Made by a program: the position numbers and the translations under genes | In this document: one piece after another, positions 23,554 to 63,890 of the stretch | Layout of the letters: every line of letters begins with the position of its first letter | How positions within the stretch are numbered: the stretch's first letter is position 1 | IMG/VR virus record: IMGVR_UViG_3300021961_000021 | DNA length: 64,000 nucleotides | Direction: 5' to 3' (one strand) | Source: a virus | The notes under the pieces: model-generated | The model's database searches: none | The model's input: the letters and a program-made list of their open reading frames with translations, nothing else | What the model was told of the DNA's origin: nothing

Positions 23554-23625
23554 TGGGAAATGGTGGATTTGAACCACCGACCTCACGATTATCAGTCGTG
23601 TGCTCTACCCCTAAGCTAATTTCCC
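23554..23625 (-). tRNA. trnI: tRNA-Ile(GAT)
   Basis: Cloverleaf GGGAAAT...CTGATAA...GGTTCAAATCC; CCA not encoded. Confidence 0.92.
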
Positions 23626-23673
23626 AATGGGGAGGGGAAGCACTTCTCTATCCACCGAGCGTTACTTCCCCAG

Positions 23674-23746
23674 TGGAGAATAGCGGACTCGAACCGCTGA
23701 CATCCTGCTTGCAAAGCAGGCGCTCTACCAACTGAGCTAATTCCCC
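23674..23746 (-). tRNA. trnA: tRNA-Ala(TGC)
   Basis: Cloverleaf, TTTGCAA loop, G3:U70 pair. Confidence 0.95.
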
Positions 23747-23885
23747 TGGCGGCCCTTTTGTTAAAGGGGTAGAGCCGAACCCCTGTCGGGACTAGAGTGT
23801 GGACCCCTCTTCCCTTACGACGCTACGGACGACACCCGTAGTAGAAGTTGATCTCCTTCTATGCTATCTGCATAACGAGTATCAA
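23747..23885 (-). ncRNA. candidate structured RNA between tRNA-Thr and tRNA-Ala (four hairpins, H-type pseudoknot, 3' GCCA)
   Basis: Stems read by eye: TATGC/GCATA, TAGAAG/CTTCTA, CTACGG/CCGTAG, GGGA-AGAG/CTCT-TCCC, AGGGGT/ACCCCT with GGCTCT/AGGGCC. Confidence 0.55.
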
Positions 23886-23959
23886 AGCCCACGGTCGGAC
23901 TTGAACCGACGACCTACGGTTTACAAAACCGTTGCTCTATCCAGCTGAGCTACGGAGGC
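23886..23959 (-). tRNA. trnT: tRNA-Thr(TGT)
   Basis: Cloverleaf, TTTGTAA loop. Confidence 0.95.
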
Positions 23960-27827: not shown

Positions 27828-27899
27828 TGGGAGATACTGGGATCGAACCAGTGACTTATTGCTTGTAAGGCAATCGCTCTACCGCTGAGCTAATCTCCC
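27828..27899 (-). tRNA. trnV: tRNA-Val(TAC)
   Basis: Cloverleaf, CTTACAA loop. Confidence 0.95.
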
Positions 27900-28165
27900 G
27901 AATGTAAGATGCGATGGCAATTAGAACAAAGGCATACACATTTCTCAATCTCTTCGACTATACGCTGTGTAGCATAACCGTTTCTGACTAATTCAGATAC
28001 ACCTTTGTCCTTGGTAGAAGGATCGCTATGGTGAAAGTCCATAGCAGCAGGATGAAAGAAACCACACTTTACACAGGGAGTCATTTTACTCAGCATATAC
28101 TCCTTGTTTCGTGCTCTGCGTTTAGCAGAAGCTTCTTTATCCCTGATCTTTCTATCTGTTGCCAT
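27890..28165 (-). CDS. small HNH endonuclease
   Basis: CVKC...DFHH..P...CVCLCSNCHRILH. Confidence 0.85.
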   Translation of the reverse strand: MATDRKIRDKEASAKRRARNKEYMLSKMTPCVKCGFFHPAAMDFHHSDPSTKDKGVSELVRNGYATQRIVEEIEKCVCLCSNCHRILHSGD

Positions 28166-28170
28166 TGTTA

Positions 28171-28198
28171 ACTCAGCATATACACTGAGTTATTTATA
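28171..28198 (-). promoter_or_regulatory. late promoter TATAAATA followed by hairpin ACTCAG/CTGAGT over the HNH ribosome-binding region
   Basis: Motif and inverted repeat read directly. Confidence 0.6.
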
Positions 28199-28215
28199 AT
28201 GGAAAACCATTGAGT

Positions 28216-28290
<75 letters not shown>

Positions 28291-61757: not shown

Positions 61758-61830
61758 CGGGTCAGGTAGGGATCGAACCTACGACCGACTGCTTAGAAGG
61801 CAGTTGCTCTATCCACTGAGCTACTGACCC
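61758..61830 (-). tRNA. trnR: tRNA-Arg(TCT)
   Basis: Cloverleaf, CTTCTAA loop. Confidence 0.95.
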
Positions 61831-62482: not shown

Positions 62483-62609
62483 CTTCTACCTGAATACCAC
62501 TCACAATGTCTTGAAGGTATTTAGATGGATCGGAATATACTTCCGATTCCAGTTCATCCACGATACGACGAAGATCTGCAATCAATAATCTCAGTTTAAA
62601 GTGATCCAT
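62460..62609 (-). CDS. hypothetical 49-aa protein
   Basis: Manual translation MDHFKLRLLIADLRRIVDELESEVYSDP... Confidence 0.65.
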   Translation of the reverse strand: MDHFKLRLLIADLRRIVDELESEVYSDPSKYLQDIVSGIQVEDDDGEAD

Positions 62610-63267
62610 CGTTTAACTCCAGATTAAGAGATTCCCAGTCACGCTGAAACAACTGGAGTCCACTATCGGTCAACGTGTGATCATACATCTTCCAGAAGAC
62701 ATCAAGAGGTACAGTGCATATATCAGCACCTGCTCCAAATGCTTTAACGACATCAGGGGCAGACCGTATAGAGGCAGCAAGAATCTCTGTCTGTACATCG
62801 TGCATCTCGTAGATAGTGTTAATCTCTCGTACCAAACCGATACCGTCCCAATACTGATCGTGTAGACGACCAACAAACGGACTAACGTAGGTAGCACCAG
62901 CCTTAGCAGCAAGAATCGCCTGAGCTGCTGAAAAAATAAGCGTGACATTGGTTTTGATTCCATCCTGTGCTAAGTCTGCACAAGCCAATAGTCCTTGTCT
63001 AGTGCAAGGTAATTTAATTGTAACATTTGGGGCAATCTGATAATAATCGACTGCCATATCCAACATTTCTTCTGCAGTATCTCCCATAACTTCGGCAGAT
63101 ACTGATGCGGTCCAAGAAAATAGTTCGGAAATTCTGTAAATAACGTCTATAGGATCCTGTCCCTGTCTTGCCATCAGTGTTGGGTTTGTGGTAACACCGT
63201 CAACAAGACCAGTTTCTATAGCGGATTTAATTACGTCAGGATCGGAACTATCGAGAAACAGTTTCAT
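62596..63267 (-). CDS. talC: transaldolase (TalC/FSA family)
   Basis: MKLFLDS..GVTTNPTL, IKLPCT..GL, NVTLIFS..QA, YVSPFVGR, ILAASIR. Confidence 0.97.
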   Translation of the reverse strand: MKLFLDSSDPDVIKSAIETGLVDGVTTNPTLMARQGQDPIDVIYRISELFSWTASVSAEVMGDTAEEMLDMAVDYYQIAPNVTIKLPCTRQGLLACADLAQDGIKTNVTLIFSAAQAILAAKAGATYVSPFVGRLHDQYWDGIGLVREINTIYEMHDVQTEILAASIRSAPDVVKAFGAGADICTVPLDVFWKMYDHTLTDSGLQLFQRDWESLNLELNDGSL

Positions 63268-63305: not shown

Positions 63306-63338
63306 CAAAAAAAGAGACTCACTTATGTGTGAGTCTCA
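63306..63338 (-). terminator. intrinsic terminator
   Basis: GAGACTCAC/GTGAGTCTC plus T7. Confidence 0.88.
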
Positions 63339-63344
63339 TAACGT

Positions 63345-63494
63345 TCATTTAACTTGCTTACTGGGTTCGTAATGCCTTACATACTTAATGCCACGATAAA
63401 TTTCTTCGCGCCATTGTTCTTGCATTGTTTCAAACTTCGCTTTACGAAGTTCTTCGGTGTCATATTGAGCACCACGATAAACTACCTTAGACAT
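63345..63494 (-). CDS. DUF4278-family peptide (49 aa, two YRG motifs)
   Basis: Manual translation MSKVVYRGAQYD...IYRGIKY; AGGAG SD. Confidence 0.85.
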   Translation of the reverse strand: MSKVVYRGAQYDTEELRKAKFETMQEQWREEIYRGIKYVRHYEPSKQVK

Positions 63495-63526
63495 AAGATT
63501 AACTCCTAAAGAAATGAGATGGTTAG

Positions 63527-63701
63527 TCCCGTTCCTTCAGTCGGCTTTTGCGTCTACGAAACAACTTTTCTTTGTGACTTGCTTAACCTCCCACACAAGA
63601 TCATTCTTTTGTTGGTCGGTGACAATTTGACTGGCATTGATTCTACTAATGAGAAGTTGTGCCTGTAAGCAAGTTAAGAAAATCTGTTCCATAGATGAAC
63701 G
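63527..63701 (-). ncRNA. second glutamine-riboswitch-like aptamer whose P2 stem encloses a small ORF
   Basis: CGTTCA...CGCAAAAGCCGACTGAAGGAACGGGA; P2 = TCTATGGAAC/GTTTCGTAGA. Confidence 0.65.
63537..63692 (-). CDS. 51-aa peptide MEQIFLTCLQAQLL...SCFVDAKAD
   Basis: Manual translation; start and stop both lie inside aptamer copy 2. Confidence 0.7.
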   Translation of the reverse strand: MEQIFLTCLQAQLLISRINASQIVTDQQKNDLVWEVKQVTKKSCFVDAKAD

Positions 63702-63755
63702 TCCCGTTCCGAGTCGGCTTACTTGCGTTCGCTATTTGGAAATAGCGAATGAACG
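63702..63755 (-). ncRNA. glutamine riboswitch (Downstream-peptide/glnA-like) aptamer
   Basis: CGTTCA-[9-bp hairpin]-CGCAAGTAAGCCGACTCGGAACG; upstream of a DUF4278/YRG peptide; CTAAATA at 63763-63769. Confidence 0.8.
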
Positions 63756-63761
63756 ATAATA

Positions 63762-63890
63762 CTATTTAGTTTTTCTCTTTTTGTTTTTGTGTTTTCTCCT
63801 TTGACAGGGTTTAGTTTTATTAAGATCATTCTTGAGTTGCCTCAAGAATCTGATGTGTTTACGAGTCTCTTTTGGATCTAGCATAATCAT
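63762..63890 (-). CDS. 42-aa highly basic peptide
   Basis: Manual translation MIMLDPKETRKHIRFLRQLK...RRKHKNKKRKTK. Confidence 0.5.
   Translation of the reverse strand: MIMLDPKETRKHIRFLRQLKNDLNKTKPCQRRKHKNKKRKTK

What the first reader, a model, noticed from the sequence alone, without database searches (positions are those of the whole stretch)
63527..63769. Tandem glutamine-riboswitch-like aptamers; the second wraps a whole 51-codon gene inside its P2 stem
Seen in sequence (minus strand): copy 1 = CGTTCA-[TTCGCTATT-TCCA-AATAGCGAA]-CGCAAGTAAGCCGACTCGGAACG-GGA. Copy 2 follows immediately: CGTTCA-[TCTATGGAAC ... GTTTCGTAGA]-CGCAAAAGCCGACTGAAGGAACG-GGA. In copy 2 the P2 arms pair over 10 bp or more (two G-U), but its loop is a complete ORF (63692-63537). 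The ATG sits in the 5' arm and the TGA in the 3' aptamer core. A YRG/DUF4278 peptide follows, and a late-type CTAAATA places +1 right at copy 1. Established: glnA/Downstream-peptide RNAs are glutamine riboswitches, found in cyanobacteria and their phages upstream of YRG peptides. Inference: aptamer 2 folding buries the inner start codon, and translating the inner ORF unfolds it, so glutamine sensing and uORF translation would jointly control the DUF4278 peptide. I do not know of an ORF-in-aptamer architecture being described.
Basis: partly seen in the sequence, partly recalled or inferred. Interest (0 to 1): 0.85.

Follow-up and report, generated by a model that had tools for sequence, protein, structure and literature searches.

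The report
Gene nested inside cyanophage glutamine riboswitch
In this T4-like cyanophage, one hairpin of a tandem glutamine-sensing RNA switch closes around a real 51-codon gene, so sensor folding and translation of that gene must compete on one mRNA; over a hundred related phage contigs share the layout and I found no paper describing it.

Summary
On the minus strand, 63757-63701 is a glnA-type glutamine aptamer (Rfam RF01739, 30.8 bits, E 1e-4). The stretch 63701-63530 is a second aptamer whose variable hairpin holds ORF 63692-63537. A covariance model trained without the window's subfamily finds this split aptamer as the only hit in 64 kb (52.6 bits, E 1e-13). Compact orthologues with the same core pass Rfam's gathering score.

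In 91 IMG/VR loci the insert is always an ORF. Its ATG lies 3-5 nt into the 5' arm, and its stop lies in the aptamer core or the 3' arm. The ORF is a real gene (dN/dS 0.12-0.27, two invariant cysteines, phrog_504). The closing stem covaries, and the two ends of the ORF form a long helix.

A two-YRG, DUF4278-like (IF17-like) peptide and a terminator follow. Its Shine-Dalgarno sequence pairs with a core segment that contains the inner stop codon.

How the switch works is inferred. The inner AUG is paired in every predicted conformer, so a kinetic competition between ribosome and aptamer is the most likely mechanism.

The scan has noted this same layout before on other DNA, in at least 86 genomes. 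None of the papers I could search describes it.

The parts
63763..63769 (-). CTAAATA, a late-promoter-like motif; by T4 geometry (-13 to -6) it would place +1 at about 63757
   Evidence: Sequence. 12 of 12 copies in the window are on the minus strand. T4-type late promoter geometry from PMC1524935. This is an inference only; no sigma-70-type promoter was found here.
63701..63757 (-). Aptamer 1, compact glnA-type glutamine aptamer: P1 63755-63751 with 63709-63705; hairpin 63749-63728; core 63727-63710
   Evidence: RF01739, 30.8 bits (gathering 35), E 1.3e-4, model positions 1-53. Aptamer 1 is present upstream in essentially all homologous loci.
63702..63704 (-). GGA linker between the aptamers. 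GAACG-GGA-CGUUC can form an inter-aptamer hairpin that excludes both P1 helices
   Evidence: The linker is 3-4 nt in most loci. The hairpin appears in the MFE of the full leader.
63530..63701 (-). Aptamer 2, split glnA-type aptamer: P1 63701-63697 with 63534-63530; 5' arm 63695-63686; 3' arm 63562-63553; core 63552-63535
   Evidence: Custom covariance model R1: 52.6 bits, E 1.3e-13, the only hit in the window. Compact orthologues with an identical core score 35.4-39.4 bits against RF01739. The MFE forms P1 plus the closing helix, z = -3.3.
63537..63692 (-). Nested gene, 51 aa, a two-cysteine helical-hairpin microprotein (phrog_504 family). Its last five codons and stop (DAKAD*) are the aptamer core
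   Evidence: ORF list. 85 unique homologues, all with open frames. dN/dS 0.12-0.27. C8 and C44 are invariant. phrog_504, E 5.7e-6. AF2 pLDDT 85.
63532..63540 (-). CUGAAGGAA, a core segment containing the inner stop codon UGA; predicted anti-SD partner of UUUCUUUAG (63514-63506)
   Evidence: MFE of the leader. Core-type SD sequestration is predicted for 66 of 115 loci.
63503..63507 (-). Shine-Dalgarno AGGAG of the downstream gene
   Evidence: Sequence. It is paired to the aptamer cores in the MFE and released from them when both P1 helices are enforced.
63345..63494 (-). DUF4278-like (IF17-like) peptide gene, 49 aa, with two YRG motifs
   Evidence: Pfam DUF4278, E 1.1e-4, 22.9 bits (cut-off 25.3). 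phrog_5049, E 2.2e-10. 108 of 115 homologous loci have two YRG motifs.
63314..63337 (-). Intrinsic terminator closing the two-gene unit
   Evidence: 9-bp GC-rich stem followed by a T run.

Best explanation
SHOWN. The leader of a small two-gene unit carries two glnA-type glutamine aptamers in tandem. The variable hairpin of the second aptamer is built from the two ends of a real, conserved 51-codon gene. Its AUG lies 3 nt into the 5' arm, and its UGA lies inside the conserved 3' core. An IF17-like (DUF4278-like) peptide gene and a terminator follow.

INFERRED MECHANISM.
1. A ribosome reading the nested gene must melt the hairpin, P1 and the 3' core. So translation of that gene and a folded aptamer 2 cannot coexist on one RNA.
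2. The AUG is paired once the 3' arm exists. Initiation is therefore most likely co-transcriptional, in the roughly 130 nt before the 3' arm is made. After the ribosomes leave, the long helix zips up, the AUG is shut, and the RNA becomes an ordinary glutamine ON-switch.
3. As in the gifB riboswitch, the Shine-Dalgarno sequence of the downstream gene is sequestered without ligand. Here it pairs with aptamer-core segments, and P1 closure releases it.
4. The inner stop codon lies inside that anti-SD segment. A terminating ribosome should therefore also unmask the downstream start, giving a second route to DUF4278 expression that does not depend on glutamine.
For: Aptamer identity:
- RF01739 hit on copy 1.
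- Compact orthologues of copy 2 with an identical core pass the gathering score, 35.4-39.4 bits.
- Model R1 finds a single hit in the window, 52.6 bits, E 1.3e-13.

Real gene:
- 91 of 91 inserts are ORFs, with the ATG 3-5 nt after CGTTCA. The stop is in the core in 86 and in the 3' arm in 3; 2 read on past the core.
- dN/dS is 0.12-0.27 and variability runs codon position 3 > 1 > 2.
- Two cysteines are invariant at 30% mean identity.
- About 970 relatives exist.
- The fold is a confident helical hairpin.

Stem:
- 43 arm combinations; mean contiguous stem 6.7 bp against 3.9 +/- 0.29 shuffled (0 of 2000). Positions 3-5 pair in 93-100% of cases, using four or more pair types.
- P1 plus a helix between the ORF ends forms in 83 of 86 MFE folds; median 18.5 bp, median z -2.1.
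- 82.6% of cells are paired, against 41-51% when the partners are slid.

Expression platform:
- 115 of 116 loci have the downstream ORF, and its SD is sequestered by the core (66) or the spacer (46).
- For the window, the MFE is -78.0 kcal/mol with the SD paired; with both P1 closed it is -68.3 with the SD freed from the cores; the AUG is paired in all conformers.
- ON-switch logic and DUF4278 = IF17-like come from PMC6212724.
Against: - There is no expression, probing or binding data.
- Copy 1 scores below Rfam's gathering score (30.8 vs 35). Copy 2 lacks the GU of the consensus AAGUA junction, so glutamine binding by either aptamer is unproven.
- RNAalifold recovers only P1, not the long helix. 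Beyond about 5-9 bp the helix is not conserved position by position.
- When the ORF sits in aptamer 1 (9 loci), its stop codon is far from the downstream SD. Stop-codon unmasking therefore cannot be universal.
- The closed-aptamer fold is about 10 kcal/mol above the MFE in nearest-neighbour terms.
- The locus set was collected by exact match to the aptamer-2 3' core, so invariance of that core is by construction.
Confidence: 0.72

Rival explanations
1. Passive cargo. The variable hairpin loop is simply the one place in the leader that tolerates an insertion. A small gene landed there, and its ends pair only to keep the aptamer intact. Any effect of its translation on the switch is incidental rather than a selected regulatory function.
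For: All four layouts exist: neither aptamer, aptamer 1 only, aptamer 2 only, or both carry an ORF. The ORF is therefore optional. Homologous proteins occur in either aptamer (L006/L011 versus L071), which suggests shuffling by recombination.
Against: In 100 of 100 cases the ATG lies 3-6 nt from the junction, and the stop lies in the 3' arm or core. This holds although the proteins have diverged to 30% identity. The top 120 family members all fit an aptamer context. A free-riding gene would be expected to carry its own RBS and drift within the loop.
Confidence: 0.2
2. Strand-swapped (nested) double core. The two 'tandem' aptamers are really one RNA. In it, the 5' P1 strand of unit 1 pairs with the 3' strand of unit 2, and the inner strands form the GAACG-NNN-CGUUC hairpin. 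This would be either the functional fold or the ligand-free state.
For: All four P1 strands are identical, so both pairings are possible. The inter-aptamer hairpin appears in the MFE. The linker is held at 3-5 nt. The swapped fold (-70.6 kcal/mol) is slightly more stable than the tandem fold (-68.3). Earlier scan notes favour this reading.
Against: Each unit on its own matches the single-aptamer Rfam model, and compact second units pass the gathering score. The flanking bases show no complementarity for either scheme. A swapped P1 would not enclose a canonical three-way junction.
Confidence: 0.25
3. Relic aptamer. In ORF-bearing loci aptamer 2 no longer senses glutamine. Its halves persist only because they encode the C-terminus (DAKAD*) and the start context of the nested gene, plus the SD-sequestering element.
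For: No binding data exist. Copy 2 is invisible to Rfam as a contiguous hit, and its 3' half alone scores only 9.3 bits.
Against: The non-coding 5' half (CGUUCA), which was not part of the search pattern, is present in all loci that are not cut off by a contig end. It is followed by a stem that covaries with the codon preceding DAKAD. P1 forms in 83 of 86 MFE folds. The core is identical to that of compact aptamers that pass Rfam.
Confidence: 0.06
4. The ORF is not translated, and its conservation reflects RNA structure only.
For: The region is strongly structured, and the AUG is paired in predicted folds.
Against: dN/dS is 0.12-0.27 with third-position variability highest. 91 of 91 frames are open despite length variation of 49-66 codons. 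Two cysteines are invariant. The fold prediction is confident. Three GenBank genomes annotate it as a CDS.
Confidence: 0.03

Closest known systems
Type 1 glutamine riboswitch (glnA RNA, Rfam RF01739), e.g. the Synechocystis gifB/IF17 leader (PMC6212724)
   Same: Same P1 (CGUUC/GAACG), the same variable hairpin followed by the ACGNAAG junction, the same small second hairpin, and the same GAAGGAACG 3' strand. It sits in the 5' leader of a DUF4278 (IF17-like) gene. The SD is sequestered by a short helix next to P1, which is consistent with an ON switch.
   Different: Here the variable hairpin is not a short stem-loop. It is a roughly 130-nt helix made from a conserved protein-coding gene, and the conserved core supplies that gene's last five codons and its stop. 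Both phage cores deviate slightly from the consensus: copy 1 lacks GAAG and copy 2 lacks GU. This core variant is essentially phage-specific, with 3 hits in about 185,000 cellular genomes.
Tandem riboswitches (tandem glnA RNAs noted by Weinberg 2010, PMC2864571; glycine riboswitch)
   Same: Two aptamers of one class lie head to tail in one leader, separated by a very short linker.
   Different: A gene is threaded through one aptamer, and in related phages through either or both. The identical P1 strands allow an inter-aptamer hairpin. Cooperativity has not been tested.
uORF-containing ligand-responsive leaders (Salmonella/E. coli mgtA-mgtL, corA-corL; PMC11552253)
   Same: An ORF lies inside a sensing leader. 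Its translation selects between mutually exclusive RNA folds that control the downstream gene.
   Different: mgtL is a regulatory leader peptide of about 17 codons whose product has no known function. Here the nested ORF is a protein under purifying selection, with a predicted fold. It lies inside the aptamer itself, not in the expression platform.
Genes carried in loops of structured RNAs (homing-endonuclease or maturase ORFs in group I/II intron loops; peptide-coding dual-function sRNAs such as RNAIII/hld) - from general knowledge, not tested here
   Same: A peripheral loop of a functional RNA fold hosts a translated ORF, while the two halves of the fold still assemble.
   Different: Those RNAs are ribozymes or trans-acting sRNAs, not metabolite sensors. 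In them the start and stop codons are not built into the conserved catalytic or sensing core.

Membership tests
Glutamine riboswitch type 1 (glnA RNA, RF01739) | Match to the Rfam covariance model at or above the gathering score (35 bits) | tested here: not met
   Copy 1 scores 30.8 bits, E 1.3e-4, over the full model. Copy 2 gives no contiguous hit, and its 3' half alone scores 9.3 bits. Compact orthologues of copy 2 with an identical core do pass: 39.4, 38.9, 36.9 and 35.4 bits.
Glutamine riboswitch type 1 (glnA RNA, RF01739) | P1 helix closing a junction that holds a variable hairpin, the ACGNAAG junction strand, a short second hairpin and GAAGGAACG | tested here: met
   Visible in the sequence for both copies. 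The split-aptamer model R1 aligns copy 2 over all 52 positions, 52.6 bits, E 1.3e-13. Copy 1 lacks GAAG and copy 2 lacks GU of AAGUA.
Glutamine riboswitch type 1 (glnA RNA, RF01739) | The variable hairpin is supported by covariation | tested here: met
   43 arm combinations, four or more pair types at positions 3-5, and 0 of 2000 shuffles reach the observed stem length. The first pair of aptamer 1's hairpin covaries U-A / A-U / C-G.
Glutamine riboswitch type 1 (glnA RNA, RF01739) | Selective binding of L-glutamine | not testable with these tools
   Needs in-line probing or ITC.
Glutamine riboswitch type 1 (glnA RNA, RF01739) | Location in the 5' leader of a nitrogen-related or DUF4278 gene, with the SD masked next to P1 | tested here: met
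   The DUF4278-like ORF starts 35 nt after P1. The SD is paired to core segments in the MFE and freed from them when P1 is closed. The same holds in 112 of 115 loci. The model is from PMC6212724.
Glutamine-II riboswitch (Downstream-peptide motif, RF01704) | Match to the Rfam model | tested here: not met
   No hit in the window at E up to 10. Related loci give only sub-threshold overlaps of 24.6-28.3 bits against a cut-off of 33.
DUF4278 / IF17-like peptides (PF14105) | Pfam match at the gathering score; repeated YRG motif | tested here: inconclusive
   22.9 bits against a cut-off of 25.3, E 1.1e-4. Two YRG motifs are present. phrog_5049, E 2.2e-10.
phrog_504 (phage proteins of unknown function) | Profile match | tested here: met
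   Window protein E 5.7e-6; homologues from P-HM2 and others E 1e-10 to 1e-13. There is no Pfam family.
Leader-peptide (uORF) attenuators of the mgtL type | A short ORF whose act of translation matters, not its product | tested here: not met
   The nested ORF is under purifying selection on its protein sequence (dN/dS 0.12-0.27). It also has invariant cysteines and a predicted fold.

The most novel reading that the evidence does not exclude
Cyanophages have turned a riboswitch hairpin into a gene. The nested two-cysteine microprotein is made only in a brief co-transcriptional burst. After that, its own mRNA zips into the aptamer and the transcript becomes a glutamine-gated message for an IF17-like peptide. 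One short RNA would thus deliver two nitrogen-metabolism effectors under a time gate and a metabolite gate. Phages would tune the logic by placing a gene in neither, either or both aptamers.
Probability: 0.3. Interest if true: 0.9.

Novelty: new variant of a known kind. Interest (0 to 1): 0.8.

Why it matters
Riboswitch aptamers are treated as non-coding, and phages are thought to use riboswitches rarely. A 2017 census found only two glutamine aptamers in cyanophage genomes (PMC5473149).

This finding runs against both views. A conserved protein gene is threaded through a metabolite-sensing aptamer. The aptamer's conserved core doubles as the gene's last codons and stop. The layout recurs in over a hundred cyanophage contigs, and standard Rfam scans miss it.

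It offers a natural system for studying how ribosomes and ligand-induced RNA folding compete. It also points to two uncharacterised phage microproteins, one of them IF17-like, that probably act on host nitrogen assimilation during infection. Cultured phage-host pairs such as P-HM2 on Prochlorococcus MED4 make this directly testable.

Tried and rejected
- **Rfam scans.** The whole-window scan at gathering scores found only six tRNAs. The 3' half of copy 2 alone gave an insignificant truncated RF01739 match.
- **First covariance model.** I rebuilt it with shorter inserts.
- **Structure and atlas searches.** Foldseek against the PDB gave no match at E <= 0.001. The protein atlas gave no usable hit.
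- **RNAalifold.** On the window's subfamily it recovered only P1, not the long helix.
- **Tandem versus strand-swapped P1 pairing.** Flank and linker tabulation gave no signal either way.
- **Ames & Breaker 2011.** The paper could not be read.
- **Closest relative.** No close sequenced relative of the window exists in the phage collection.
- **Complex prediction.** Not used, because this report makes no binding claim.
- **'ORF is chance or untranslated'.** Considered and rejected on the codon statistics.

Full report
**1. Observation.**
- Copy 1 has P1 (CGTTC 63755-63751 with GAACG 63709-63705) around a 9-bp hairpin and the core CGCAAGTAAGCCGACTCG.
- After a GGA linker, copy 2 starts with CGTTCA (63701-63696).
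- Its 5' arm TCTATGGAAC (63695-63686) pairs with GTTTCGTAGA (63562-63553).
- It ends with the core CGCAAAAGCCGACTGAAG and GAACG (63534-63530).
- The 51-codon ORF 63692-63537 starts in the 5' arm and stops at the TGA inside the core.

**2. Are these glutamine aptamers?**
- Rfam's Glutamine riboswitch model (RF01739) matches copy 1 over its full length at 30.8 bits, E 1.3e-4. That is just under the gathering score of 35.
- Copy 2 cannot be found as a contiguous match. Its 3' half alone scores an insignificant 9.3 bits.
- Related phages carry a compact second aptamer with the identical 5' strand and 3' core. These pass the gathering score: 39.4, 38.9, 36.9 and 35.4 bits, with S-PM2 at 33.3.
- I built a covariance model of the split aptamer from 22 compact and 7 ORF-bearing examples, excluding the window's protein subfamily. 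It finds one hit in the 64-kb window on either strand: 63703-63526, 52.6 bits, E about 1e-13, all 52 model positions, with the ORF interior as a loop insertion.
- There is no match to Glutamine-II / Downstream-peptide (RF01704) in the window.

**3. Comparative survey.**
- GenBank phages DSL-LC03, DSL-LC02, S-SRM01 and P-HM2 share the layout. In three of them the inner ORF is an annotated hypothetical CDS. S-PM2 has two compact aptamers.
- Of the 121 loci with a CGTTCA within 260 nt, 91 have a long insert in aptamer 2 and 30 are compact.
- Every one of the 91 inserts is an ORF of 49-66 codons whose ATG lies 3-5 nt after CGTTCA. The stop is the core TGA in 86, lies in the 3' arm in 3, and is read through in 2.
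- Among the compact-aptamer-2 loci, 9 carry an ORF in aptamer 1 instead, built by the same rules. Five of these end at the TAA of that aptamer's AAGUAAG core, giving proteins that end ...GRK*.
- Of the 91, 31 carry ORFs in both aptamers, P-HM2 among them. 56 have a compact aptamer 1, as in this window.
- The core variant is essentially phage-specific. It gives 3 hits in about 185,000 cellular genomes. Two are Prochlorococcus single-cell assemblies, and one of those (contig of 189,106 bp) also appears in IMG/VR as a phage contig, L050.

**4. The nested ORF is a real gene.**
- Within subfamilies, dN/dS is 0.12-0.27 and variability runs codon position 3 > 1 > 2.
- Across 48 diverse members (mean column identity 30%) only two columns are invariant, both cysteines: C8 and C44 in the window protein.
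- The family is phrog_504, or phrog_6471 for the aptamer-1 type. Its function is unknown, it has no Pfam family, and it has about 970 relatives in metagenomes.
- AlphaFold2 predicts a helical hairpin (helices 8-20 and 26-38, pLDDT 85). No solved structure gives an informative match.
- Of the top 120 database relatives, 50 end in DAKAD or DAKVD and 38 end in GRK. Of the other 32, four are single-substitution variants of DAKAD. The remaining 28 belong to the HEPVHWTIxC subfamily and end a few residues after the second Cys, like L006, whose stop lies in the 3' arm. I did not fetch the DNA around these 28.
- Over-long gene calls begin with aptamer 1 translated (...TQVSRLGTDRSS-ME...). I therefore saw no family member that is evidently outside an aptamer.

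**5. The closing helix.**
- Across 43 distinct arm combinations, the mean contiguous stem from the junction is 6.7 bp, against 3.9 +/- 0.29 when arms are shuffled between loci (0 of 2000). Positions 3-5 pair in 93-100% of cases, using four or more pair types. For example, TCTAT/ATAGA, TCCTTA/TAAGGA, TCCCA/TGGGA and TCTTAT/ATAAGA all occur. The codon preceding DAKAD therefore covaries with the bases preceding the ATG.
- Beyond this base, the two ends of the coding sequence pair extensively. In the window there are about 28 bp, MFE -49.5 kcal/mol, z -3.3.
- In 86 unique loci, 83 MFE folds form P1 closing such a helix (median 18.5 bp). The median z is -2.1 against shuffles of the insert alone.
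- In the window's 16-member subfamily the helix is 82.6% paired, against 41-51% when partners are slid. Double changes exceed every shuffle.
- RNAalifold recovers only P1. So the outer part of the helix is not conserved position by position.

**6. Downstream platform.**
- 115 of 116 loci have a 30-59 codon ORF starting 30-40 nt after aptamer 2, and 108 of them have two YRG motifs.
- The window's copy (63494-63345) matches DUF4278 just under the Pfam cut-off and matches phrog_5049. An intrinsic terminator follows it.
- Klähn et al. 2018 showed that DUF4278 is part of the glutamine-synthetase inactivating factor IF17. They also showed that the gifB glutamine riboswitch turns expression on, and postulated that it does so by melting a short helix next to P1 that masks the RBS.
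- Here the SD is masked in one of two ways. In 46 loci a CUCUUUA attached to P1 masks it. In 66 loci, including the window, the core's own C-UGA-AG segment does.
- For the window's leader, the MFE (-78.0 kcal/mol) has the inter-aptamer hairpin GAACG-GGA-CGUUC, and the SD is paired to both cores. Enforcing both P1 helices (-68.3) frees the SD from the cores. The inner AUG stays paired in every conformer.

**7. Mechanism.**
- Shown: the anatomy, the coding status of the ORF, and the conserved closure of the hairpin.
- Inferred: a ribosome on the nested gene and a folded aptamer 2 are mutually exclusive. The AUG is buried once the 3' arm exists, so initiation is probably co-transcriptional, and the transcript later matures into a glutamine ON-switch for the IF17-like gene. 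A ribosome terminating on the core UGA would occupy the anti-SD and could transiently unmask the downstream start.
- Limit: the last point cannot hold for ORFs in aptamer 1.
- Whether the two units fold as independent tandem aptamers or swap P1 strands cannot be decided. All four strands are invariant, and the flanks carry no signal.

**8. Promoter.**
- CTAAATA (63769-63763) would place +1 at about 63757 by T4 late-promoter geometry. All 12 copies in the window lie on the coding strand.
- No sigma-70-type promoter is found there. Most homologous loci have TTGAC-17-TATAAT ending a few bases before CGTTCA.

**9. Literature.**
- Weinberg 2010 noted tandem glnA RNAs.
- McCown 2017 found only two glutamine aptamers in cyanophages and concluded that phages rarely use riboswitches.
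- Other cyanophage and methylophage papers merely list the riboswitch.
- Eight full-text searches found no description of an ORF inside a glutamine aptamer. Ames & Breaker 2011 could not be read.
- The nearest functional precedent is the mgtL uORF in the mgtA leader.
- Earlier notes of this scan report the same layout on other DNA, in at least 86 genomes, with the same conclusion.

**10. Caveats.**
- The locus set was gathered by exact match to the aptamer-2 core, so that core's invariance and the layout frequencies are conditioned on it.
- There are no experimental data on binding, transcription or translation.

Noticed in passing
L005 (P-HM2), L015, L018, L021, L022, L026, L035, L037, L039, L042 and about 20 more loci: 31 of the 91 loci with an ORF in aptamer 2 also carry a second, paralogous two-Cys ORF (about 62-70 codons) inside aptamer 1. 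Both hairpins of the tandem switch therefore hold genes. In P-HM2 these are PHM2_179 and PHM2_180.
   Followed up: partly
L004, L001, L009, L050, L099, L114 and others, about 10-45 nt upstream of aptamer 1: Most homologous loci have a sigma-70-like TTGAC-17-TATAAT promoter whose -10 box sits inside a perfect palindrome, such as GGTCTATAATAGACC, GTGTTAATATTAACAC or GGTATGCTAACATACC. The last one fits the GTA-N8-TAC form of NtcA sites (from general knowledge). It may be an operator that links the cassette to host nitrogen control. The window lacks it.
   Followed up: no
L044:1071-1268(-), L080:1674-1875(-): A strong manA RNA (RF01745, about 175 bits) lies a few hundred bases downstream of the glutamine-riboswitch cassette in two marine phage contigs.
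   Followed up: no
L090:3808-3885(+): One locus has a 48-nt AT-rich insert in the aptamer-2 hairpin. It contains a direct repeat (TTAGGATTCTTAATA twice) and no ORF, so this is a different kind of occupant of the same loop.
   Followed up: no
P0001 (106 aa; second half identical to the L042/L049 protein): One database gene call fuses the N-terminal part of an aptamer-1-type protein (MTKALLLLAWVPLL...) to an aptamer-2-type protein through a short translated piece of the aptamer-1 core and linker (LGTDRSS). The L042 DNA shown has an intact aptamer-1 ORF, so the fusion sits on another contig. It looks like a deletion or recombination between the two nested genes.
   Followed up: no
window 23554-23959, 27828-28290, 61758-61830 (minus strand): Six tRNA genes lie in the window. 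The transaldolase gene talC (62596-63267, minus strand) lies directly downstream of the cassette's terminator. This is typical T4-like cyanomyovirus content.
   Followed up: partly
window, 12 sites including 62518-62524 and 63763-63769: All 12 copies of CTAAATA are on the minus strand. The total count is not enriched (12 against 8.6 expected). The pattern is consistent with a late-promoter-like motif on the coding strand.
   Followed up: partly
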